NCBI RefSeq assembly: GCF_003018115.1
Contig: NZ_CP027457.1
From: Escherichia coli
Lineage (GTDB): Bacteria; Pseudomonadota; Gammaproteobacteria; Enterobacterales; Enterobacteriaceae
Strand: one strand, 5' to 3'
Length of the DNA stretch: 64,000 nucleotides
Shown here in pieces: positions 3,896-50,605 of this stretch (position 1 is the stretch's first letter; each line of letters opens with the position of its first letter). Position numbers and translations under genes: made by a program. A model generated the notes under the pieces. It searched no databases and had not been told where the DNA came from. It worked only from the letters and a program-made list of their open reading frames with translations.

Positions 3896-11878
<7,983 letters not shown>

Positions 11879-12191
11879 GCTTACCTTCCCTGAACGAGCT
11901 AACATAAATGCGCCCTTTCTAGCACAGCGAAAAAATGTAAATCCTGATAGCAATATGATTGAAAATTAATAACTTTTCGTTAGGCAGTTTTGGGGGTGAG
12001 TTGCAAGAGGGGAGACTACTGAATAACTCAAGTTTTATAATCGAGGGGAAAATGGTGATGGCGTTCATAGCAAAACGCCCTCAACCATAAAGGTCGAGGG
12101 CGCTTAAGATGTTAAAAACCCGCTATCCGTTAAAAAACAATGTTCAACTAAGGTCAGTGACATTGCGCTAAAAAAGCGAATTTTTAGAATT

Positions 12192-21562: not shown

Positions 21563-22756
21563 TTAGAACTGGTAGACTAAGCCCACAGCAACGATATCAT
21601 CGGTAGCGATGCCGTTTGCTTCGTAGAAGTCATCGTCGTTGTCCAGCAGGTTGATTTTGTAATCAACATAGGTGGACATGTTTTTGTTGAAGTAGTAGGT
21701 CGCACCAATATCAACGTATTTAACCAGATCTTTATTGGTGTAACGTGGGTCGCCGTTGCCGTCATGAGCCCAACCGCCTAAATCCTTACCTTTAGATTGC
21801 AGGTAAGCGATGGACGGGCGCAGGCCAAAGTCGAACTGATACTGAGCAACAACTTCAAAGTTTTGGGTTTTGTTAGCGATGGCTGATCTTGATTCACCAT
21901 TATCAAACTCGCCACCACCATATGGGGTCATATTGCGAGTTTCAGCGTACATAGCTGCTAAATACACATTATTAGCATCATATTTTGCACCAACAGTCCA
22001 TGCTTCAGCGGTTTCACCACCAGCATTTCTGTTGCTATGGTTACGATCATTTAAACCAACTCCAACCTGACGATCTGAACGATCAGAGTTTGAATATGCA
22101 GCACCCAGACTTAAACCGAAGTCGAAGTCATAGGAAGTGGACATACCGAAACCATCACCATTTTCTTGAGCAATGTCCCGACCCTTACCCTTACCAGAAC
22201 CTTCCTGACCGAATGGACCACCGTTTTCGTTATTACTCTGATATTGCAGAGCAAAGTTCAGGCCATCGACCTGACCAAAGAAGCCATTGTTACGGTAGGT
22301 TGCAACACCATTAGCACGACCGTTCATGAAGTTGTCAGCGCCAGCATAGGTATCGCCACCAAATTCTGGCAGCATATCGGTCCATGCTTCTACGTCATAT
22401 ACGACACCGTAGTTACGACCATAGTCGAAAGTACCATTCTGACCAAAGCCTAAACCTGCAAATGCCAGACGCGTTGCAGTATTACCTTTGTCGCTTTCAG
22501 TACCGTTTGCGCCAATGTTAAATTCCCACTGACCGTAACCAGTGAATTGATCAGCGATCTGAGTTTCACCTTTGAAACCGATACGGGCATATGACATGTC
22601 GCCATCGCTGCCAGAATCATCAGAGAAGTAGTGCAGACCCACTACTTTTCCGTACAAATCCAGTTTATTACCATCTTTATTATAGACTTCAGCCGCATTT
22701 GCTGCGCCAGCAACTAATAACGCCGGGACCAGCATTGCCAGAACTTTTCTTTTCAT
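21563..22756 (-). CDS. yedS: General bacterial porin, OmpC/OmpF family, apparently intact (~397 aa)
   Basis: Signal peptide [21 protein letters not shown], porin N-terminal motif [16 protein letters not shown] and C-terminal ...[18 protein letters not shown] upstream of ATG at 22756. Confidence 0.8.
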
Positions 22757-23321
22757 TATGTATTCCCTTGTGATTATAATCTTCATGAATATATCAATAA
22801 GTGCCGTTATCCAAAAAAAGCACATTTGGATACTATTCTATGAAGTTCATTTTATTTTAAGGATTGCATGTAACAAATGTATTTAAAAGATTTCAAAATG
22901 TTTCTAATCTATTTAATATAATTCAGGATTATGAATTCTGAATATAAACATTCATGAAGATTATAAATGCATATCAATATGTTATGAGTTGAGCGGAAAC
23001 ATAGGGGGTATCAATGATTGTTGCGCCAAACGGCTGGTGTGATCAGGCGCACATTAATGAAGGCATAAAAAAAAGCCGGCATCATGCCGGCCCAAAAAAT
23101 ATAAACAAGACGATAAAAGGCTAATAACGGTAGCATCATGACACAGAATAATAAAAAGGTATAATTGTAATCAGTGCTAATATATTGATTAAATGAATTA
23201 ATAAAGCCGATATCAAAGATAAATAAAATCGCTCAAAACGATTTTTCCTGTATTCACTGCCGTTGCGCAAAATTTATCTATTTGTTCAAAAAATGATTGA
23301 GTCTTGACTGGCTCATCCAAT

Positions 23322-23687
23322 GTGGAAAAATGTGACTTTTATCACATAATAGTACTAAGTCTGAATTTTCCGGGTTATCTCAAAATGGAATACGGTTCGA
23401 CAAAGATGGAAGAGAGACTCTCTCGCAGCCCTGGCGGCAAACTGGCTTTGTGGGCTTTCTATACATGGTGTGGCTATTTCGTCTGGGCAATGGCGCGTTA
23501 CATCTGGGTGATGAGCCGGATCCCCGATGCCCCCGTGTCGGGATTTGAAAGCGATTTAGGCTCTACCGCGGGAAAGTGGTTAGGGGCACTGGTCGGATTT
23601 TTATTTATGGCTCTGGTCGGGGCATTGTTAGGCAGCATTGCCTGGTACACCCGACCTCGTCCCGCACGTAGCAGACGCTATGAATAA
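23322..23687 (+). CDS. yedR: Small inner-membrane protein (two predicted TM helices)
   Basis: ORF ending ...LGSIAWYTRPRPARSRRYE; the exact start is uncertain (GTG at 23322, TTG at 23304 or ATG at 23385). Confidence 0.55.
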   Translation: MEKCDFYHIIVLSLNFPGYLKMEYGSTKMEERLSRSPGGKLALWAFYTWCGYFVWAMARYIWVMSRIPDAPVSGFESDLGSTAGKWLGALVGFLFMALVGALLGSIAWYTRPRPARSRRYE

Positions 23688-31492: not shown

Positions 31493-31579
31493 AACACATC
31501 AGATTTCCTGGTGTAACGAATTTTTTAAGTGCTTCTTGCTTAAGCAAGTTTCATCCCGACCCCCTCAGGGTCGGGATTT
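31493..31579 (+). ncRNA. dsrA: DsrA small regulatory RNA (Hfq-dependent; acts on rpoS and hns mRNAs)
   Basis: Sequence AACACATCAGATTTCCTGGTGTAACGAATTTTTTAAGTGCTTCTTGCTTAAGCAAGTTTCATCCCGACCCCCTCAGGGTCGGGATTT matches DsrA including its terminal stem-loop and U-tract. Confidence 0.85.
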
Positions 31580-38878: not shown

Positions 38879-40251
38879 TTATGATACTGTCGGGAAAATA
38901 CGCTCCAGCCCCTGGAGAGACGCTTCCCAGTCCGCGCGTTCAAAAATGCCTTGTTGCAAATAGCCCTCCAGCTGCGGCCACAGGGCGATGGCTTTATCGA
39001 GCATCGGATCGCTGCCTTTGGCATACGCGCCGACGCTAACCAGATCTCGGTTACGCTGAAAACTCGACAACAGCTGTTTGAAGGTGCGCACTCGCGCGTA
39101 ATGTTGCTCGCTGATCAACGTCGTCATTGCGCGGCTGATCGACGCTTCAATATCGATAGCCGGATAGTGCCCGGCTTCCGCCAGTCGGCGAGACAGCACA
39201 ATGTGACCGTCGAGGATCGCCCGCGCGGAGTCGGCAATCGGATCCTGCTGGTCATCGCCTTCAGTGAGCACGGTATAAAATGCAGTAATCGATCCGCCGC
39301 CGCTAATGCCATTTCCGGCACGCTCGACCAGTGCCGGTAATTTGGCAAACACCGACGGTGGATAACCTTTGGTGGCGGGTGGTTCGCCAATCGCCAGCGC
39401 AATTTCACGCTGGGCCATCGCGTAGCGGGTGAGGGAGTCCATAATCAGCAACACATGCTGACCACGATCGCGAAAATCTTCGGCAATGCGCGTGGCATAG
39501 GCGGCACCTTGCATTCGCAGAAGCGGAGAGACATCCGCCGGAGCGGCAATCACCACGGAGCGTGCACGCCCTTCGGCACCGAGGATATTCTCAATAAAAT
39601 CTTTTACTTCGCGCCCACGTTCACCAATCAAACCCACGACAATGACATCGGCGCGGGTGTAACGTGCCATCATCCCCAGCAGCACACTTTTACCAACGCC
39701 GGACCCGGCAAACAGCCCCATACGCTGCCCACGCCCAACGGTAAGCAGGGCATTGATTGGGCGCACGCCGGTGTCCAGCACATGTTCAATCGGTGTACGT
39801 TGCAACGGGTTAAATGGTGGGGTAATCAGCGCACCGGTTTCCGTCGTATCGGGGGAGGGCAGGCCATCGAGCGGTTTACCGCTGCCGTCCAGAACGCGAC
39901 CTAATAACGCCGGACCGAGCGGCAACTGCTTGCCGCTTTGCAGTCCTTCAGCCGAAATGTTTTTGGCATAAACACGCGCGCCGGGCAGGACACCTTCCAC
40001 TTCCTCCAGCGGCATTAAAAACAGCCGTTGACCGTTAAAGCCAACGACTTCGCTTTCTACTTCGTGCGTTTCGCTGCCGTTCTGGCGCTCAATGACACAG
40101 GTTGCGCCGAGCGGCAATTGTAATCCGGTGGCTTCCAGCACCAGTCCGGTAGCGCGGGTTAATCGCCCGTAGCGACGTACCGCAGGCAACTGCGCCATTT
40201 TGGCTTCAAAGTTATCCAGCGTGGTTAGCCAGCGAGTCAGGCGCGTGGTCA

Positions 40252-43791: not shown

Positions 43792-44106
43792 ATGTCAGCG
43801 ATACAGGGGATTGAAGGGGTTATCAGCCAGTTACAGGCTACGGCGATGAGTGCGCGTGCGCAGGAATCACTGCCGCAACCGACCATTAGTTTTGCCGGGC
43901 AGCTGCACGCCGCTCTCGATCGCATAAGCGATACACAAACAGCCGCCCGCACGCAGGCAGAAAAATTCACTCTCGGTGAACCCGGCGTGGCGTTAAACGA
44001 TGTGATGACCGATATGCAAAAAGCCTCAGTTTCTATGCAAATGGGGATTCAGGTGCGTAATAAGCTGGTGGCGGCGTATCAGGAAGTGATGAGCATGCAG
44101 GTGTAG
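43792..44106 (+). CDS. fliE: Flagellar hook-basal body protein FliE (104 aa)
   Basis: Sequence [29 protein letters not shown]...; start trimmed from the track ORF. Confidence 0.85.
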
Positions 44107-44439
44107 GTTTTGTAACCTGTTGTTGATTACATCCGATCTCACCGCGTGGGGCATGGATGGGGCAAATTCACTCATTTTCTGGTTTAAAATGGATACCTGA
44201 TCCTGAAAGTTTTCTGCCATCCACGATCTGTATACGCGATAACATGTTTTGTCTTCGCTTTGCTCATAGGAAGAGTGAACTCTTTTGTTAGCCTGGGGTT
44301 CCTTCTGATCATTATTGTTCCTGCCTTTATCTCTTGCCACGCCAGAGCCCCCTGGATACACATACACCAGGATGAAAACGGTGAGTTGTGTTCAAACTGT
44401 AGTACAATTCTCTCCAGTATGAACAGGAAAGAATATGCT

Positions 44440-44772
44440 ATGAACCCTTATATTTATCTTGGTGGCGCAATACTTGCAGAGGTCATTGGTACAACCTTAA
44501 TGAAGTTTTCAGAGGGGTTTACACGGTTATGGCCCTCTGTTGGCACAATTATTTGCTATTGTGCATCATTCTGGTTATTAGCTCAGACACTGGCTTATAT
44601 ACCTACAGGGATTGCTTATGCTATCTGGTCAGGAGTCGGTATCGTTCTGATTAGTTTGCTTTCCTGGGGATTTTTTGGTCAACGACTGGACCTGCCAGCC
44701 ATCATAGGCATGATGTTGATTTGTGCCGGTGTGTTAGTCATTAACTTGTTGTCACGAAGTGCACCGCATTAA
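44440..44772 (+). CDS. emrE: SMR-family multidrug efflux transporter (EmrE-like, 110 aa)
   Basis: Sequence MNPYIYLGGAILAEVIGTTLMKFSEGFTRLW... with the conserved membrane-embedded Glu (AEV); near-identical to my recollection of K-12 EmrE. Track ORF is over-extended upstream. Confidence 0.8.
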   Translation: MNPYIYLGGAILAEVIGTTLMKFSEGFTRLWPSVGTIICYCASFWLLAQTLAYIPTGIAYAIWSGVGIVLISLLSWGFFGQRLDLPAIIGMMLICAGVLVINLLSRSAPH

Positions 44773-44940
44773 AAAATAATCATCCTTGAGATAACAGGAA
44801 TCTGATTTGTGCATATTATGGCTAATGTTCGGGGCAACTTTATAATTATGATTGCATTTGCGCGATCATTGCGCCTTTTTGCATAATGAGATCAAGGCAC
44901 ATCAAATAAAATAACGATAGGTCACAACAAAGAGGTTTTT

Positions 44941-45492
44941 ATGAAAAAACTTATCGTTTCAAGTGTATTGGCATTCATAACATTTTCTGCGCAGGCCGCA
45001 GCATTTCAGGTCACTAGTAATGAAATAAAAACAGGAGAGCAACTTACAACGTCTCATGTATTTTCTGGATTTGGGTGTGAGGGGGGTAATACATCGCCCT
45101 CATTAACCTGGTCTGGTGCTCCAGAAGGCACCAAAAGCTTTGCCGTAACTGTGTATGATCCAGATGCGCCTACAGGCAGTGGATGGTGGCACTGGACTGT
45201 TGCTAATATTCCAGCAACGGTAACATATTTGCCCGCTGATGCAGGAAGACGTGATGGTACAAAACTTCCGACTGGTGCTGTCCAAGGCCGAAATGATTTT
45301 GGCTATGCGGGATTTGGTGGAGCATGTCCTCCCAAAGGAGATAAACCCCATCATTACCAGTTTAAAATATGGGCTCTAAAAACTGATAAGATTCCTGTGG
45401 ATTCTAATTCCAGCGGAGCGTTAGTTGGTTATATGCTTAATGCCAATAAAATTGCAACCGCTGAGATAACACCCGTTTATGAGGTAAAGTAG
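44941..45492 (+). CDS. Periplasmic PEBP/RKIP-family protein (YbcL-like, 183 aa)
   Basis: Signal peptide MKKLIVSSVLAFITFSAQA and PEBP core (DPDAP...HHY); resembles the DLP12-encoded YbcL. Confidence 0.75.
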   Translation: MKKLIVSSVLAFITFSAQAAAFQVTSNEIKTGEQLTTSHVFSGFGCEGGNTSPSLTWSGAPEGTKSFAVTVYDPDAPTGSGWWHWTVANIPATVTYLPADAGRRDGTKLPTGAVQGRNDFGYAGFGGACPPKGDKPHHYQFKIWALKTDKIPVDSNSSGALVGYMLNANKIATAEITPVYEVK

Positions 45493-45501
45493 GATAAGAG
45501 T

Positions 45502-46299
45502 ATGCTGGCAAAAGATAGGACTAACCTAAAGATTGAAGAAATACGGATGCATAAACATCATGAGATTCACAGGGTTAAGCCTCTTATGCCAGCTTTATGT
45601 CGTATCCGTCAGGGAAAAAAAGTTATCAATTGGGAGACGCATAGTCTAACTGTTGATAATAATCAGATAATATTATTTCCCTGTGGATATGAATTTTATA
45701 TTGCGAATTACCCAGAAGCAGGTCTTTATCTTGCAGAAATGCTTTATTATCCCATTGATCTAATTGAAAAGTTCCAAAATCTTTATGCGATAACCGATCA
45801 AATTCGTAACACGACAGGTTTCTGCTTACCTCAGAATCCCGAGTTAATATATTGTTGGGAGCAACTAAAAACATCTATTTCCCGAGGCTTCTCAACGCAA
45901 ATTCAGGAACACTTAGCAATGGGCGTTCTACTTTCATTAGGAGCACATCATGTTAATTGTTTACTTTTATCAGATAGTAAACAATCATTAATAAGTCGTT
46001 GTTATAACCTAATGCTATCCGAACCTGGAACAAAATGGACAGCAAACAAGGTAGCGAGATATCTCTACATTTCTGTTTCCACATTGCATCGCCGTCTGGC
46101 AAGCGAGGGAGTAAGTTTTCAAAGTATATTGGACGACGTGAGGTTAAATAATGCGTTGTCTGCTATACAAACGACAGTAAAACCCATCAGCGAGATTGCC
46201 AGAGAAAGTGGTTACAAGTGTCCTTCTCGTTTTACTGAAAGGTTCCATAATCGTTTTAAGATAACACCAAGAGAGCTAAGAAAAGCGTCCAGAGAGTAA
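45502..46299 (+). CDS. AraC/XylS-family transcriptional regulator (YbcM-like, 265 aa)
   Basis: C-terminal AraC-type HTH (...[30 protein letters not shown]); AGGA RBS 9 nt upstream; starts 10 bp after the PEBP gene stop (operon-like). Confidence 0.7.
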
Positions 46300-46800
46300 A
46301 AGTATTTTATGAAGGAGCAACAGCATCGATTTTTATTTTGGAAAATAAATACGGCATACTCAACCTATTGGAGCCTGAACAATCCGGTGACTTCTGCGCT
46401 AATCGGGGACGTTTATAAGCACATATAATTGATACTATCTTCCTCCATCACAATTTCAGAAATGCACGTGTGATTTTTTTGCATCCGGCGTTTGGACTAT
46501 GTGGAGTTCAAGAGTGGGAAAGTTACAAGAGGTTGAGGGGATAATTAAAGGGATGCTTATGACATTAGATATCCGGTTAGGTACGGATATCGTTGTTATT
46601 AAATCTAATTGATACGTTAATTGTTCACTGAGTATTATTAAAAATGGGGCGTTGAAACGCCCCAGAAAATAAAGGGTAATATATAACAGAAGGTTTATAT
46701 AGTCAGAAGCAAGATAGTGCTTCTAAGGAAAGTGGTTTGAGGGCGCCACTTATATGTTGGGGAGGCAAAGCCTCCCACAACATATCTTTGAGTAATCAGA

Positions 46801-47883
46801 TTAGAACTGGTAAACCAATCCTACAGCAACGATATCATCGGTAGCAACGCCAGATGCTTTCGTGAAATCGCTCTTATCAATCAGGTTGATTTTGTAATCA
46901 ACAAAAGTGGACATATTTTTGTTGAAGTAATAGGTTGCACCTACATCAATATATTCAACCAGGTCCTGATCACCCCACGCACCCAAGTCTTTTCCTTTAG
47001 ATTGCAGGTAAGCAACGGACGGACGCAGACCGAAGTCGAACTGATATTGTGCAACTACTTCAAAGTTTTGTGCTTTGTTGGCAATATGGTTATTACCAAA
47101 AACAGTCATGTTCTGGGTTTCAGAATAGGTGGTAGCCAGATAGATGTTGTTCGCATCATATTTCAGACCAGCTGCCCATACTTCAGCATTTTGACCAGAT
47201 GCATTCAGGCTGTTGTTACCGTAGATAACCTGATCATTAGTGCGGTCAGATTTAGCATAGGTTGCACCTACACCGAATCCTTCATACTCATAAGTAGTGG
47301 AGAAACCGAAACCATCACCGTTAGCTTCAGTTACGTCAGTGCGGTCATTTTTACCCTGATACTGAGCAGCAAAGTTCAGACCATCAACCAGACCAAAGAA
47401 GTCGTTGTTACGATAAGTTGCAACACCTGTGGTGCGACCAGTCATGAACACATCTGTTTGGGTCCAGGTATCGCCACCGAATTCTGGCAGAACGTCGGTC
47501 CATGCACCGATATCGTATGCTACACCGTAGTTACGGCCATAATCGATGGAGCCGTAGTCACCGAATTTCAGGCCAGCGAAGGCAAGACGGGTTTTATCTT
47601 TGGAAGAACCTTGAGATTCAGCACGGTTGCCTTTGAATTCATATTCCCACTGACCGAAACCAGTCAGTTGATCGTTGATTTGAGTTTCGCCTTTGAAGCC
47701 CAGACGAACATAAGTTGTGTCGCCATCATCTGCATCGTTAGAAGAGAAGTAGTGCTTAGCATTAACTTTTCCGTACAGATCCAGCTTGTTACTGTCTTTA
47801 TTGTAAATCTCTGCTGCCTGAGCAGACATCGCCATCAGTACTGATGCAGCTACAGCAGAAATTGCCACTGTTAATTTTTTCAT
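46801..47883 (-). CDS. General bacterial porin, OmpC/OmpF family, NmpC/Lc-like (360 aa)
   Basis: Signal peptide [23 protein letters not shown], motif [17 protein letters not shown]-terminal ...[10 protein letters not shown]-terminus matches my recollection of NmpC-type porins. Confidence 0.8.
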
Positions 47884-48394
47884 CGTGAGCCCTTTTATTT
47901 GAACTATTATTTAAAAATGATGTCACTGCACCACAAATATTCATCTAATCAATGAGATTATTTCAAGATGTAAGTTTTAGTTTCTCATTTAAATTGTGAA
48001 GTAGATCCCTATTTTTATCTGAACTGTTTCTATTGCACACAATGCATGACTATTTTGTGAACGAATATAAATTTGGTAGTCAAATTATATTAAAGGTTGT
48101 TATTTATGATTGACTCATAATTTATTTTTTTAATTTAAATAGCCTGAAAATAACTATAGAAATTATTTGTATGATATTTGTTTAGATTTATTAATGTAAT
48201 TTAGGTGGTTTTATTTAATACGCAATATAGCGCCGCTTGATATTAGTTCTATTTTTTTGCGTAAGATAGATGAGACAAAACTGAGACGCATAATGGTTTG
48301 CAAGGCTCTAATACTTTGATGTTGAGGATGTGATGGGGCATGTACGGGCATAGTACAATGATGTCCATGCAGGTGTAGATAATCTCCAGGCTTA

Positions 48395-49063
48395 TCAAAC
48401 AGGTTGAATTAACGCTGCGCCCTGGTTTTTAACATTACCCACCGCGCGCGATACCGGGTGCCAGGAGAACTGGTTTGCTGGAACACAGCCACTGGCCGCG
48501 ATTTCTGAGGCTTCTTTACCGCTAATCTCTTGCCGCATCCATTCCCGCGCAGCTTCTGGCGACAGTACCAGTGGGCGGCGGTCATGAATATCTACCAGAC
48601 CTTGATCTGCCGCAGCAGTGACGATCAAAAATCCTTCGGCTTCGTCACCACGCTCAAATGGTGTGCTACCTATCGCGGCCATAAAAATAGGTTGTCCATC
48701 AGCACGATAGATAAAAAAAGGCTGTTTTTTGTCGCCTTCTTTTTTCCACTCAAACCAGCCATCGGCAAAACAGATTGCCCGACCATGTTGCCAGAGCGGT
48801 TTAAACATGCGACTGGTTGCGGCAGTTTCTACGCGGGCGTTAATCAGCGGCGGTTTATCCCACCATCCCGGAGCATATCCCCAGAAAACCGGATCCAGAT
48901 GAAGGTGTTCATCACGTTCACTGAGCAGAAGAACTTTGGTTCCCGGCGCGACGTTGTATCTGCTAATGGGTTCGGGATCGTAGGGAATATCGCGTTCAAT
49001 ATCTTCCGCGAGAAGCGCAAGGTAATCTTCACGCGTTTGGGATTGGGCAAAGCGTCCACACAT
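48395..49063 (-). CDS. yedK: SOS-response-associated peptidase (abasic-site processing protein), 222 aa
   Basis: N-terminal MCGRF (catalytic Cys2) hallmark of the SRAP family. Confidence 0.85.
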   Translation of the reverse strand: MCGRFAQSQTREDYLALLAEDIERDIPYDPEPISRYNVAPGTKVLLLSERDEHLHLDPVFWGYAPGWWDKPPLINARVETAATSRMFKPLWQHGRAICFADGWFEWKKEGDKKQPFFIYRADGQPIFMAAIGSTPFERGDEAEGFLIVTAAADQGLVDIHDRRPLVLSPEAAREWMRQEISGKEASEIAASGCVPANQFSWHPVSRAVGNVKNQGAALIQPV

Positions 49064-49169
49064 AGAAACCTCCTGAGATCATACTGAAAAGAATAGGAGA
49101 GGGGGCGGGTAAAATCTATGTGTCAGAGGCAACGATGTTCCCGCTGTGGGCCACAGCGGGAATGAGGGA

Positions 49170-49403
49170 TTACTTCTGAATTAAATAACGAATGGTCGGC
49201 CCGTCTTGCTGAATATCCAGCACCGTATAGCCGTGATTACGCGCATCCAGTGGAATATTATTGATCGACTGCGGACAGTCGCTCACCACTTCCAGGATCT
49301 CACCTTTTTTTAATTGCGGCATCGCCTCAAGAGTTGCGACTGCCGGATAAGGGCAGGGTTCACCCACCATATCAAGGCGGTAATCAGGAACGATATTTTT
49401 CAT
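49170..49403 (-). CDS. yedF: TusA-like sulfurtransferase-fold protein (77 aa)
   Basis: CPxP motif (EPCPYP) typical of TusA-like proteins; overlaps the yedE stop. Confidence 0.85.
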   Translation of the reverse strand: MKNIVPDYRLDMVGEPCPYPAVATLEAMPQLKKGEILEVVSDCPQSINNIPLDARNHGYTVLDIQQDGPTIRYLIQK

Positions 49404-50605
49404 GCGATCTCCTTAGCAGTCTGCGGTGCCGCACGGCGGAAGAAGCGTTTTTCCCAGCCGATAATCAACATCAGCGCAGTAAACAACAGCAAATATGTCA
49501 CCAGCAGGCCACCCATCGGGCCAAAGGTTTTCAGCAGGTTTATTTTGTCCCAGTCGGTGGCCAGCGCTGGAGCGAAATCATCCCAGTAATACGCCAGAAT
49601 CGTTGAGCCGATCACATTGCCCAGACCGACCCACCAGTAGTGCACCTGGCCTTCTACCGCGCGGTACATCCAGCCGGTTTCGCAGCCGCCAGCCAGCACG
49701 ATGCCAAAACCAAACAGTAAACCACCAATTACCGCGTTTGGTCCCGCCCACATGATTTTGGGTTCAACGCCTAACTGTACGTAACTGAAGATCCCGATGG
49801 CACTCACCGCCATACCGATAATGATTGCTTTCGCCATATGAGTACGTCCGGTGATCCACATATCGCGGAACGCCGAAGTAAAGCAGATTTGCGCACGTTC
49901 AATCAGTAAACCAAAGCCGACGCCAAACAGCATTGCCAGCCCCAGTTTGGGTTGGTTCATCGCCGTGAGCAGCGCCCAGCCCAGCATGCCGAAAAAGACC
50001 AGCATCCCGAGACGAAAACGACGTCGCGCCTGATCCGGTTTTTGCGTCAGCGGTGAGGCGGCAGAAACTTTCTGCATTTTCACGGGAATACGGAAGATGG
50101 GCAGCAGGGTAAAGCGCGCGCCAAACCATGAACCAATGGCAGTGGCGATGGCAAAGAACCAGGCATGCAGCGAGAACTGAGGAATACCGGTAAAGAACGC
50201 CGCCAGGTTACAGCCCATTGCCAGACGCGCGCCAAAACCGGCGATAATGCCGCCAATGATGGCCTGCATAATGCGGATACGGCTGCGCGGCATTCGCAGT
50301 TTGACATTGTTGGCCCACAGCGCTGCGGCAAAGCAGCCGCCAAACATACCGAGGATCATCATCCCGTCGATGCGGGTTAATGGCGATCCTTCCAGATGGA
50401 TAATTTTAAAGTAACCCCACTCTTCAGCATGGACGCCGAACAGTTGCAGGAGCTGGCCGCCCCAACGGGTAAATTCACCCGTGACAGCCCAAAAGGTGCC
50501 AGTAATGCCAAAATAGTAAGTGGAGAGAATACCCGCCGCGATGACCGCGGGGATGGGCGCCCAGAATTTAATCAACCAGGCGTGTTTGAATTGCTGCCAT
50601 GACAT
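49400..50605 (-). CDS. yedE: YedE/YeeE-family inner-membrane transporter (401 aa)
   Basis: Polytopic membrane protein with duplicated YeeE/YedE domain; paired with yedF. Confidence 0.85.
   Translation of the reverse strand: MSWQQFKHAWLIKFWAPIPAVIAAGILSTYYFGITGTFWAVTGEFTRWGGQLLQLFGVHAEEWGYFKIIHLEGSPLTRIDGMMILGMFGGCFAAALWANNVKLRMPRSRIRIMQAIIGGIIAGFGARLAMGCNLAAFFTGIPQFSLHAWFFAIATAIGSWFGARFTLLPIFRIPVKMQKVSAASPLTQKPDQARRRFRLGMLVFFGMLGWALLTAMNQPKLGLAMLFGVGFGLLIERAQICFTSAFRDMWITGRTHMAKAIIIGMAVSAIGIFSYVQLGVEPKIMWAGPNAVIGGLLFGFGIVLAGGCETGWMYRAVEGQVHYWWVGLGNVIGSTILAYYWDDFAPALATDWDKINLLKTFGPMGGLLVTYLLLFTALMLIIGWEKRFFRRAAPQTAKEIA

What the first reader, a model, noticed from the sequence alone, without database searches (positions are those of the whole stretch)
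47884..48394. 0.5 kb strongly AT-rich ORF-free tract between yedK and the porin gene
The segment is conspicuously AT-rich compared with the flanking genes and has no convincing ORF. It sits at the boundary of the putative islet and upstream of the porin start. Such tracts are typical H-NS nucleation sites, horizontally acquired promoter regions or decayed remnants of mobile DNA. There are no obvious long direct or inverted repeats by eye.
Basis: seen in the sequence. Interest (0 to 1): 0.3.

Follow-up and report, generated by a model that had tools for sequence, protein, structure and literature searches.

The report
Phage-derived porin promoter plus prophage scar
The AT-rich gap is the leftover control region of a porin gene that a lambda-like virus once brought into E. 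coli, joined to the scar of that virus's integration site; it is real and fully explicable, and it is ordinary.

Summary
47884-48394 has 29.7% GC, contains the most AT-rich 300 nt of the window (22.7% against a mean of 48.7%), and has no conserved ORF and no Rfam match.

It is a composite of four pieces:
- **47884-48221:** the upstream region of an Lc/NmpC-type phage porin gene. It is 88-96% identical to the DLP12 nmpC, PA-2 lc and phage 434 upstream regions over -1..-150, and 62-78% over -151..-338. The proximal CAP/CRP site is kept.
- **48222-48357:** a prophage attR arm.
- **48358-48378:** an att core. It is 21/21 identical to the sequence just downstream of the integrase gene of phage IdasGreatGrand, and it repeats the 3' end of fliE (44087-44106).
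- **48379-48394:** native spacer before the yedK stop codon.

The 4.3 kb islet (integrase relics, emrE, ybcL, ybcM, a quuD fragment, the porin) is a deleted DLP12-like prophage sitting in the fliE attB. An intact prophage occupies the same site in strain UTAK-1.

H-NS binding is inferred only from the K-12 paralogue, a published H-NS-bound "promoter island". No high-affinity H-NS motif is present here.

Novelty is low.

The parts
47884..48221 (-). lc/nmpC-type porin upstream (promoter/regulatory) region, GC about 24%
   Evidence: blastn against DLP12 (K-12) reaches window 48221 at 85%; against PA-2 and REL606 it reaches 48212. 36 phage records match query positions 1-338 at 80-81.5%. Identity by bin: -1..-150 is 88-96%, -151..-338 is 62-78%, and there is none beyond.
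47995..48010 (+). proximal CAP/CRP site TGTGAAGTAGATCCCT, centred about 119.5 nt upstream of the ATG
   Evidence: It aligns with the CAP site annotated in PA-2 record J02580 (ATTTGTGAAGTAGATCTCTAT). It has 2 mismatches to TGTGAN6TCACA. CRP activation of K-12 PnmpC is stated in PMC11677980.
47961..47966 (-). inferred -35 hexamer TTGAAA. It lies inside ACTTACATCTTGAAATAATC (47956-47975), which resembles the ompC C1 OmpR site as recalled from memory.
   Evidence: Read from the sequence. The stretch is invariant in all 5 and all 8 aligned sequences. The assignment is an inference, not mapped.
47937..47942 (-). inferred -10 hexamer GAATAT (18-nt spacer), with the likely start at a G within 47929-47934
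   Evidence: Read from the sequence. It is consistent with the 5' RACE result that the K-12 nmpC TSS is a G within -199..-1 (PMC11677980). The simple promoter scan did not call it, because it scores 3 of 6 in the -10 hexamer.
48222..48357 (.). attR arm (phage P arm) of the decayed prophage; it starts at the deletion junction with the porin promoter region
   Evidence: It is found only at this locus, in 1554 of 5426 complete E. coli genomes, at 95-99% identity. It is absent from IMG/VR by exact 22-mer. 48269-48322 is 75% identical over 65 nt to the int-gtrA spacer (the attP region, from general knowledge of these phages) of Shigella phages SfII, SfV, SfI and SfIV, in the orientation expected for a P arm.
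48358..48378 (+). att core (the attR copy), TGATGTCCATGCAGGTGTAG
   Evidence: 21/21 identical to the sequence 18 nt downstream of the integrase gene of Escherichia phage IdasGreatGrand. It is a direct repeat of the fliE 3' end (18/20 in this window, 20/20 in CFT073). The same core flanks an intact 38.7 kb prophage in E. coli UTAK-1.
48379..48394 (.). native spacer between the att core and the yedK stop codon
   Evidence: Homology with K-12 downstream of yedK starts at 48379 (98.8%).
44087..44106 (+). att core (the attL copy), which is the last 20 nt of fliE including its stop codon
   Evidence: It differs from the attR copy only by a synonymous Ser codon (AGC versus TCC).
44107..44347 (-). integrase gene relics (intG-like), reading towards fliE
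   Evidence: 44087-44242 is 86% identical to the 3' end of the IdasGreatGrand int gene plus core, and 44238-44347 is 75% identical to an internal part of int. K-12 IntG residues 7-60 match the C-terminus of phage integrases at up to 78%. K-12 annotates this as the intG pseudogene, cryptic prophage PR-G.
46801..47883 (-). porin gene served by the tract (Lc/NmpC/OmpD type, 360 aa, intact)
   Evidence: 90% identical to PA-2 Lc. Pfam Porin_1, E = 1.3e-153. The protein is identical to that of the CFT073 yedK-adjacent porin.
46516..46842 (.). quuD 3' fragment plus the quuD-nmpC spacer and the nmpC 3' end; this shows the original lambdoid Q-porin context
   Evidence: 87% identical to DLP12 L009 8242-8571.
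48395..49063 (-). yedK (core gene), whose 3' end abuts the tract

Best explanation
The tract is a two-part relic of a lambdoid (DLP12-like) prophage that integrated into the 3' end of fliE.

The porin-proximal 338 bp (47884-48221) are the native promoter and regulatory region of the phage 'moron' porin gene of the Lc/NmpC family. By homology with the characterised K-12 nmpC promoter, I infer that it drives sigma-70 transcription of the intact porin gene from a start about 45-50 nt upstream of the ATG, and that it is activated by cAMP-CRP at the conserved site centred near -71.5. Its extreme AT-richness (24% GC) is a family trait of this promoter region. That makes it a likely H-NS target and so a likely basis for the 37 °C over 23 °C thermoregulation reported for nmpC genes.

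The distal 173 bp are inert. A large internal deletion removed everything from 338 bp upstream of the porin (lysis, head and tail genes) to about 137 bp before the prophage end. This fused the promoter region to the attR arm (48222-48357), the 21-bp att core (48358-48378) and the 16-bp native spacer before yedK.

Shown: the homology, the anatomy, the att repeats, the integrase relics, and present-day use of the same attB by intact phages. Inferred: the promoter elements, the transcription start, the CRP, OmpR and H-NS action, and activity in this strain.
For: Composition and absence of coding or RNA-family signal.

Homology of 47884-48221 to lc/nmpC upstream regions: 36 phage records, the alignment, blast blocks, and the identity gradient of 88-96% proximal against 62-78% distal. 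The proximal part is at least as conserved as the coding sequence (85-89%).

The porin is intact and 90% identical to Lc.

The islet is collinear with DLP12 in four blocks: renD/emrE; ybcL-ybcM-ylcH; the quuD 3' end; nmpC plus its upstream region.

The PA-2 CAP site 1 is conserved and CAP site 2 is lost.

The AT-richness is shared: the first 338 bp upstream of the porin are 28-29% GC in K-12, PA-2, 434 and ev243, against 43% for the distal part.

Literature on the paralogue: PnmpC lies within -199..-1, its TSS is a G, and it is activated by CRP and repressed by OmpR, IHF and MprA (PMC11677980). The K-12 nmpC/essD spacer is one of 78 'promoter islands' and is H-NS-bound in all ChIP data sets compiled (PMC3661553). 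nmpC rises 16.5-fold at 37 °C in K-12 (PMC8544407), and both nmpC genes of CFT073 are preferentially expressed at 37 °C (PMC12890032).

att scar: the 20-bp direct repeat; the core 21/21 identical to IdasGreatGrand downstream of int, with the integrase 3' end adjoining the fliE copy; full-length integrases abutting fliE in 8 genomes, and an intact P22-like prophage flanked by the same core in UTAK-1; and K-12 homology resuming exactly at 48379.
Against: - No transcription data exist for this strain.
- The -10 assigned here is weak (GAATAT), and the simple promoter scan did not call it. Promoter-like sites are no denser than in shuffles (2 against 2.9 ± 2.0).
- The distal CAP site and about 230 bp of the phage spacer are missing, so regulation may differ from that of K-12 PnmpC.
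- No TCGATAAATT-like H-NS motif occurs within 2 mismatches. H-NS binding rests on a paralogue that is only 62-78% identical in the part overlapping the published promoter island.
- In many E. coli genomes the same tract persists after the porin was deleted, so persistence alone is not evidence of function.
- The attR arm does not match the IdasGreatGrand P arm. Its only relative is a weak match to Shigella Sf phages (database E = 4e-3).
- That CFT073 c2348 is the yedK-adjacent porin is my inference from gene order; I could not verify it.
Confidence: 0.85

Rival explanations
1. The tract is a dead relic. It is leftover phage DNA with no present function, and the porin is silent or is transcribed only by read-through from yedK.
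For: The same tract survives at 95-97% identity in genomes where the porin is deleted after codon 13 (DETEC-P169, NCTC9066, BE311, O111 FWSEC0005, ST2350). About 1499 genomes have the tract, but only 454 have the whole islet. No intrinsic terminator is predicted between yedK and the porin. 'Promoter islands' are reported to be transcriptionally almost silent (PMC3661553).
Against: In this window the porin ORF is intact and its protein is identical to that of CFT073. The proximal 150 bp are 88-96% identical across paralogues whose coding sequences are 85-89% identical. The homologous K-12 promoter is active enough to be mapped by 5' RACE and to drive IS5 transposase expression. nmpC-type genes of CFT073 are expressed at mRNA and protein level at 37 °C.
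Confidence: 0.1
2. The tract encodes an unannotated small RNA or small protein, for example in the 137-bp segment found only at this locus.
For: Porin-flanking regions in this genome neighbourhood do carry sRNAs: RseX is upstream of the other porin and DsrA is elsewhere in the window. The 48222-48357 segment is conserved at 95-99% in 1554 genomes.
Against: Rfam gives no match even at E <= 1. The fold of 48200-48400 is no better than shuffles (z = -0.28). The short ORFs shift frame between strains. The 95-99% identity is simply the E. coli background level, the same as in the flanks. The segment is explained as an att arm.
Confidence: 0.03
3. The tract works mainly as an H-NS nucleation and silencing platform (a 'promoter island') that represses the whole islet and stops yedK transcription, rather than as a working promoter.
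For: It has the lowest GC in the window. TpA frequency is 0.124 against 0.05 window-wide, and there are 8 A/T tracts in 338 bp. The paralogue is H-NS-bound in all compiled studies. The islet as a whole has 40% GC.
Against: There is no high-affinity H-NS motif. This reading does not exclude promoter function, because H-NS silencing and CRP activation commonly coexist. The thermoregulated expression of nmpC genes shows that the promoter does fire.
Confidence: 0.3

Closest known systems
PnmpC, the promoter region of nmpC in cryptic prophage DLP12 of E. coli K-12/B, and the lc promoter region of phage PA-2 (Blasband et al. 1986; Coll et al. 1994; PMC11677980)
   Same: 338 bp of collinear homology directly upstream of an orthologous porin start codon. 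The proximal CAP site, the putative -35/-10 and the leader are 88-96% identical. The same extreme AT-richness is present (28-29% GC in the phage copies, 24% here).
   Different: It sits between fliE and yedK rather than between Q and the holin gene. The distal about 230 bp of the phage spacer, including the second CAP site (-405..-425 in PA-2), are replaced by an att arm. -151..-338 has diverged to 62-78% identity. There are three substitutions around the presumed start site (GTGGTG against ATCGCG).
'Promoter islands': H-NS-bound, AT-rich, horizontally acquired intergenic regions (Panyukov & Ozoline 2013, PMC3661553)
   Same: It is a paralogue of one listed island (nmpC/essD; about -82..-435 after I converted the genome-version coordinates myself). 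It is AT-rich for more than 300 bp and associated with foreign DNA.
   Different: The defining promoter density (PlatProm) was not computed. The simple scan shows no excess over composition-matched shuffles. H-NS occupancy at this copy is unknown.
Prophage attR at the fliE 3' end attB (K-12 'cryptic prophage PR-G'/intG; phage IdasGreatGrand PP925829; the UTAK-1 prophage)
   Same: The att core is identical. Integrase relics abut fliE at the other end. The orientation of arm, core and bacterial flank is as expected for P-O-B'.
   Different: The arm sequence differs from the IdasGreatGrand and UTAK-1 P arm. It resembles, weakly, the int-gtrA spacer of Shigella Sf phages, which (from general knowledge) use a different attB, thrW. 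The K-12 version of the locus (yedL-yedN-intG) lacks the attR copy altogether.

Membership tests
lc/nmpC-type phage porin promoter region | Lies directly upstream of an Lc/NmpC-type porin gene | tested here: met
   The porin is 90% identical to PA-2 Lc and matches Pfam Porin_1. The tract ends at its ATG.
lc/nmpC-type phage porin promoter region | Sequence homology to the characterised PnmpC/lc upstream region, including the -199..-1 segment that contains the K-12 promoter | tested here: met
   88-96% identity over -1..-150 and 62-64% over -151..-200.
lc/nmpC-type phage porin promoter region | Proximal CAP/CRP site | tested here: met
   AATTGTGAAGTAGATCCCTAT against PA-2 ATTTGTGAAGTAGATCTCTAT; 2 mismatches to the consensus.
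lc/nmpC-type phage porin promoter region | Distal CAP/CRP site (-405..-425 in PA-2 and K-12) | tested here: not met
   Homology ends at -338, so the site lies in the deleted part.
lc/nmpC-type phage porin promoter region | Position between the antiterminator Q gene and the holin gene of a lambdoid (pro)phage | tested here: inconclusive
   A quuD 3' fragment is still present beyond the porin stop, but the holin side has been deleted and replaced by attR.
lc/nmpC-type phage porin promoter region | Mapped transcription start and promoter activity; regulation by CRP, OmpR, IHF and pH | not testable with these tools
   Only literature on the K-12 paralogue is available. The two primary papers are not held.
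H-NS-bound 'promoter island' | At least 300 bp of strongly AT-rich DNA associated with horizontally acquired genes | tested here: met
H-NS-bound 'promoter island' | Abnormally high density of predicted start points (at least 8 per 100 bp by PlatProm) | tested here: inconclusive
   PlatProm is not available. The simple sigma-70 scan gives 2 sites against 2.9 ± 2.0 in shuffles.
H-NS-bound 'promoter island' | H-NS occupancy in vivo | not testable with these tools
   The paralogous K-12 region is bound in all compiled studies.
H-NS-bound 'promoter island' | High-affinity H-NS nucleation motif TCGATAAATT | tested here: not met
   No match within 2 mismatches inside 47884-48394; only 3-mismatch matches occur.
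Prophage attR scar (fliE attB) | Core sequence identical to the attP core of a sequenced phage | tested here: met
   21/21 with IdasGreatGrand, 18 nt downstream of int.
Prophage attR scar (fliE attB) | Second copy of the core at the other end of the insert, next to an integrase gene or relic | tested here: met
   The same arrangement surrounds an intact prophage in UTAK-1.
Prophage attR scar (fliE attB) | Arm sequence homologous to the P arm of the same phage | tested here: not met
   There is no significant match to the IdasGreatGrand P arm, only a weak match to the Sf-phage attP region.
Prophage attR scar (fliE attB) | Recombination competence | not testable with these tools
   The integrase here is reduced to fragments, so the islet is presumably immobile.

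The most novel reading that the evidence does not exclude
The tract may have a function independent of the porin. It is retained at 95-97% identity in roughly a thousand E. coli genomes that have lost the porin gene. As an orphan AT-rich H-NS platform and promoter cluster at the yedK 3' end, it could act as a transcriptional insulator or Rho/H-NS termination zone between the core gene yedK and the prophage relic. Alternatively it could drive a transcript antisense to ybcM in the porin-less variants.
Probability: 0.07. Interest if true: 0.35.

Novelty: new member of a known kind. Interest (0 to 1): 0.15.

Why it matters
The value is mostly in annotation. The analysis turns an unannotated 0.5 kb gap, present in about 28% of complete E. 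coli genomes including the uropathogen CFT073, into named parts: a phage-type porin promoter with one of its two CAP sites, a deletion junction, and an attR scar.

It also shows that the fliE 3' end is an attB still used by P22-like and lambdoid phages, and that the emrE-ybcL-ybcM-porin islet is a second, independently integrated DLP12-like prophage.

For work on outer-membrane permeability and thermoregulated porins in pathogenic E. coli, it predicts that this NmpC copy shares the core promoter of K-12 PnmpC but lacks its distal CRP site. None of this changes current concepts.

Tried and rejected
- **Rfam.** Permissive thresholds over 44000-50000, and gathering thresholds over the whole window, gave nothing in the tract.
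- **Terminator and fold.** The terminator scan and an RNA fold of the yedK-proximal 200 nt found no terminator, and z = -0.28.
- **Repeats.** The repeat search inside the tract found only short pairs of chance level.
- **H-NS motif.** A search for the H-NS 10-mer found none within 2 mismatches in the tract.
- **Genome-contig scan.** An exact scan with the invariant 18-mer CTTACATCTTGAAATAAT returned only chance hits in AT-rich genomes (Pelagibacteraceae, Flavobacterium and others) and no enterobacteria.
- **Viral-contig scan.** An exact scan with a 22-mer of the att arm gave 0 hits.
- **intG remnant.** Pfam on the intG-like ORF gave no hit. tblastn against phages was needed to show that it is an integrase C-terminus.
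- **SfII Int.** A comparison of the relic ORF with SfII Int showed no similarity.
- **Primary papers.** Blasband 1986 and Coll 1994 are not held. The exact K-12 TSS position and the OmpR, IHF and MprA sites could therefore not be transferred.
- **CFT073 c2348.** Attempts to verify that c2348 is the yedK-adjacent porin failed: the supplement is cut before that gene, and the literature gives no coordinates.
- **Link to the other porin gap.** The idea that the tract is related to the AT-rich gap upstream of the other porin (22826-23303) was rejected, because there is no sequence similarity.

Full report
**Observation.** The gap between the porin ORF (46801-47883, minus strand) and yedK (48395-49063, minus strand) is exactly 47884-48394. 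Its GC content is 29.7%. The most AT-rich 300-nt stretch of the whole 64 kb window lies inside it (47893-48192, 22.7% GC; window mean 48.7%, sd 6.2%), and only 0.014% of 300-nt windows reach that value. Among 28 rough intergenic gaps it ranks lowest. It is nearly tied with 22826-23303 (30.5%), which is also upstream of a porin gene; the median gap is about 41%. No ORF is conserved: the two longest (46 and 49 aa) change frame by single-base indels in strains 2A and CFT073. Rfam finds nothing even at E <= 1. No intrinsic terminator is predicted. The yedK-proximal 200 nt fold no better than shuffles (z = -0.28).

**Context.** The window is Escherichia coli. Its flanks are 98.3-98.8% identical to K-12, and the locus is 97.7-98.6% identical to many complete genomes. 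In strains 2A and CFT073 the same arrangement is annotated as fliE / emrE / ybcL / ybcM / 'porin OmpC' / yedK / yedF / yedE. K-12 has yedL, yedN and the intG pseudogene ('cryptic prophage PR-G') in the same place. Homology with K-12 stops at 44243 on the fliE side and resumes at 48379, 16 nt from the yedK stop.

**The islet is a deleted DLP12-like prophage.** The window is collinear with K-12 DLP12 in four blocks:
- 44364-44774 matches the renD end and emrE (92%).
- 44786-46506 matches ybcL-ybcM-ylcH (89.5%).
- 46516-46842 matches the quuD 3' end, the spacer and the nmpC 3' end (87%).
- 46859-48221 matches nmpC plus 338 bp upstream (85%).

The porin is 90% identical to Lc of phage PA-2. Its protein sequence is identical to that of the CFT073 porin.

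**Part 1 of the tract, 47884-48221.** Thirty-six phage records (PA-2, 434, ev243, Kati, the PhiR series and others) match tract positions 1-338 at 80-81.5%, always directly upstream of their lc/nmpC/ompD porin gene and facing the holin gene. Identity to PA-2, REL606 and 434 is 88-96% over -1..-150 and 62-78% over -151..-338, with nothing beyond. The AT-richness is a family trait: the first 338 bp upstream of the porin are 28-29% GC in K-12, PA-2, 434 and ev243, whereas the holin-proximal remainder is about 43% GC.

The CAP site annotated in the PA-2 record (ATTTGTGAAGTAGATCTCTAT) is conserved here as AATTGTGAAGTAGATCCCTAT (47992-12; core 47995-48010). The second annotated CAP site (-405..-425) lies in the part that is missing here.

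For the K-12 paralogue, PMC11677980 reports the following:
- The promoter lies within -199..-1.
- 5' RACE gives a G as the start.
- CRP activates at two operators.
- OmpR, IHF and MprA repress.

From the sequence I infer a -35 TTGAAA (47966-47961), an 18-nt spacer, a -10 GAATAT (47942-47937) and a start at a G in 47929-47934. This would put the CAP site near -71.5. The stretch ACTTACATCTTGAAATAATC that overlaps the -35 is invariant in every homologue aligned. It resembles the ompC C1 OmpR site as I remember it. These assignments are inference, not mapping.

**H-NS.** PMC3661553 lists the K-12 nmpC(-)/essD(+) spacer (354 bp from position 576129 of U00096.2) among 78 'promoter islands', inside genomic islands and bound by H-NS in all ChIP data sets compiled. 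By my own conversion between genome versions, which I did not check independently, that interval is about -82..-435 from the nmpC ATG. nmpC is one of the most strongly 37 °C-induced genes in K-12 (16.5-fold; PMC8544407). In CFT073 both nmpC/c1560 and 'nmpC precursor'/c2348 are preferentially expressed at 37 °C at RNA and protein level (PMC12890032). From gene order I judge c2348 to be the yedK-adjacent porin, but I could not verify this. On the other side, the tract has no match to TCGATAAATT within 2 mismatches, and its promoter-like sites are not denser than in composition-matched shuffles. H-NS targeting is therefore plausible, through general AT-richness (TpA 0.124 against 0.05) and through paralogy, but it is not shown.

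**Part 2 of the tract, 48222-48394.** The segment 48213-48378 occurs only at this locus, in 1554 of 5426 genomes at 95-99% identity, and is absent from IMG/VR. Its last 20 nt (48359-48378, TGATGTCCATGCAGGTGTAG) repeat the last 20 nt of fliE (44087-44106, TGATGAGCATGCAGGTGTAG). The match is 18/20 here and 20/20 in CFT073, and the only difference is a synonymous Ser codon.

The K-12 IntG pseudogene product matches the C-terminal about 55 residues of phage integrases, best of all Escherichia phage IdasGreatGrand at 78%. In that phage the integrase stop codon is followed after 18 nt by a sequence 21/21 identical to window 48358-48378. Window 44087-44242 is 86% identical to the phage's core plus the int 3' end, and 44238-44347 matches an internal part of int.

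Eight complete E. coli genomes carry a full-length integrase of this type abutting fliE, and 5159 of 5426 carry at least the relic. In strain UTAK-1 an intact 38.7 kb P22-like prophage sits there, flanked by the same core at both ends. So 48358-48378 is an attR core, 44087-44106 is the attL core, and the fliE 3' end is a live attB.

The 136 bp between the deletion junction and the core (48222-48357) occupy the position of the phage P arm. They do not match the IdasGreatGrand arm. However, 48269-48322 is 75% identical over 65 nt to the int-gtrA spacer of Shigella phages SfII, SfV, SfI and SfIV, in the orientation expected for a P arm. The match is weak (database E = 4e-3; pairwise E = 1e-8).

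**Population.** The tract (at least 80% covered) is in 1499 of 5426 complete genomes, and the whole islet is in 454. In five sampled genomes of the more divergent allele group, the porin gene is deleted after codon 13 while the tract is retained; IS200/IS605 or IS1203 is inserted between it and yedK. The tract can thus persist as an orphan, which warns against reading conservation within E. coli as evidence of function. In this window the porin is intact.

**Mechanism and verdict.** A DLP12-like lambdoid phage integrated into the fliE 3' end. Deletions then removed ybcK, ybcN through most of quuD, and everything from 338 bp upstream of the porin to about 137 bp before attR. What remains between the porin and yedK is the porin's own AT-rich, CRP-responsive promoter region fused to the attR scar.

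Two of them (acquired promoter, decayed mobile DNA) are shown outright, and the third (H-NS site) is supported by paralogy only. This is a paralogous copy of a known promoter region plus a standard prophage scar: a new member of a known kind, of low general interest.

Noticed in passing
window 22826-23303 (with 21563-22825 and 23068-23157): The second most AT-rich gap of the window (30.5% GC) lies upstream of another porin-like ORF (21563-22825, -). It contains the RseX sRNA (Rfam RF01401, 98 bits). A perfect CRP palindrome TGTGACTTTTATCACA lies just beyond it at 23331-23346. It shares no sequence similarity with the tract studied.
   Followed up: partly
window 44087-44106 / 48358-48378; L049 (E. 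coli UTAK-1) 605-624 / 39330-39349: The fliE 3' end is a phage attB that is still in use. An intact P22-like prophage is integrated there in UTAK-1, in tandem with the old integrase relic. 5159 of 5426 complete E. coli genomes carry at least the integrase relic next to fliE. The two core versions differ by a synonymous Ser codon (AGC or TCC), so FliE is unchanged by integration.
   Followed up: yes
L043-L048 (E. coli DETEC-P169, NCTC9066, BE311, O111:NM FWSEC0005, ST2350): In these genomes the porin gene is deleted after codon 13 while the AT-rich tract is kept as an orphan. IS200/IS605 (tnpA/tnpB) or IS1203 is inserted between the tract and yedK. BE311 also has an IS1-associated loss of the flagellar region next to ybcL.
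   Followed up: partly
window 46300-46800: The 0.5 kb gap downstream of the porin holds a ylcH fragment (to 46506), a quuD 3' fragment (from 46516), and the quuD-nmpC spacer homologue. In K-12 that spacer is where the IpeX sRNA is said to lie; this is from memory and was not verified. Rfam gives no match.
   Followed up: no
window 31493-31579: DsrA sRNA (Rfam RF00014, 102.5 bits), on the + strand.
   Followed up: no
window 3896-11953: A very long ORF (2685 aa, - strand). It was not examined.
   Followed up: no
window 48269-48322 vs L041 (Shigella phage SfII) 3001-3065: The attR arm shows a short but clear similarity (GATGAGACAAAACTGAGAC...AATGGYTTGCAAGGCT) to the int-gtrA spacer of serotype-converting Shigella phages. 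From general knowledge, those phages use a different attB (thrW). This hints at a shared att-arm module between integrase families.
   Followed up: partly
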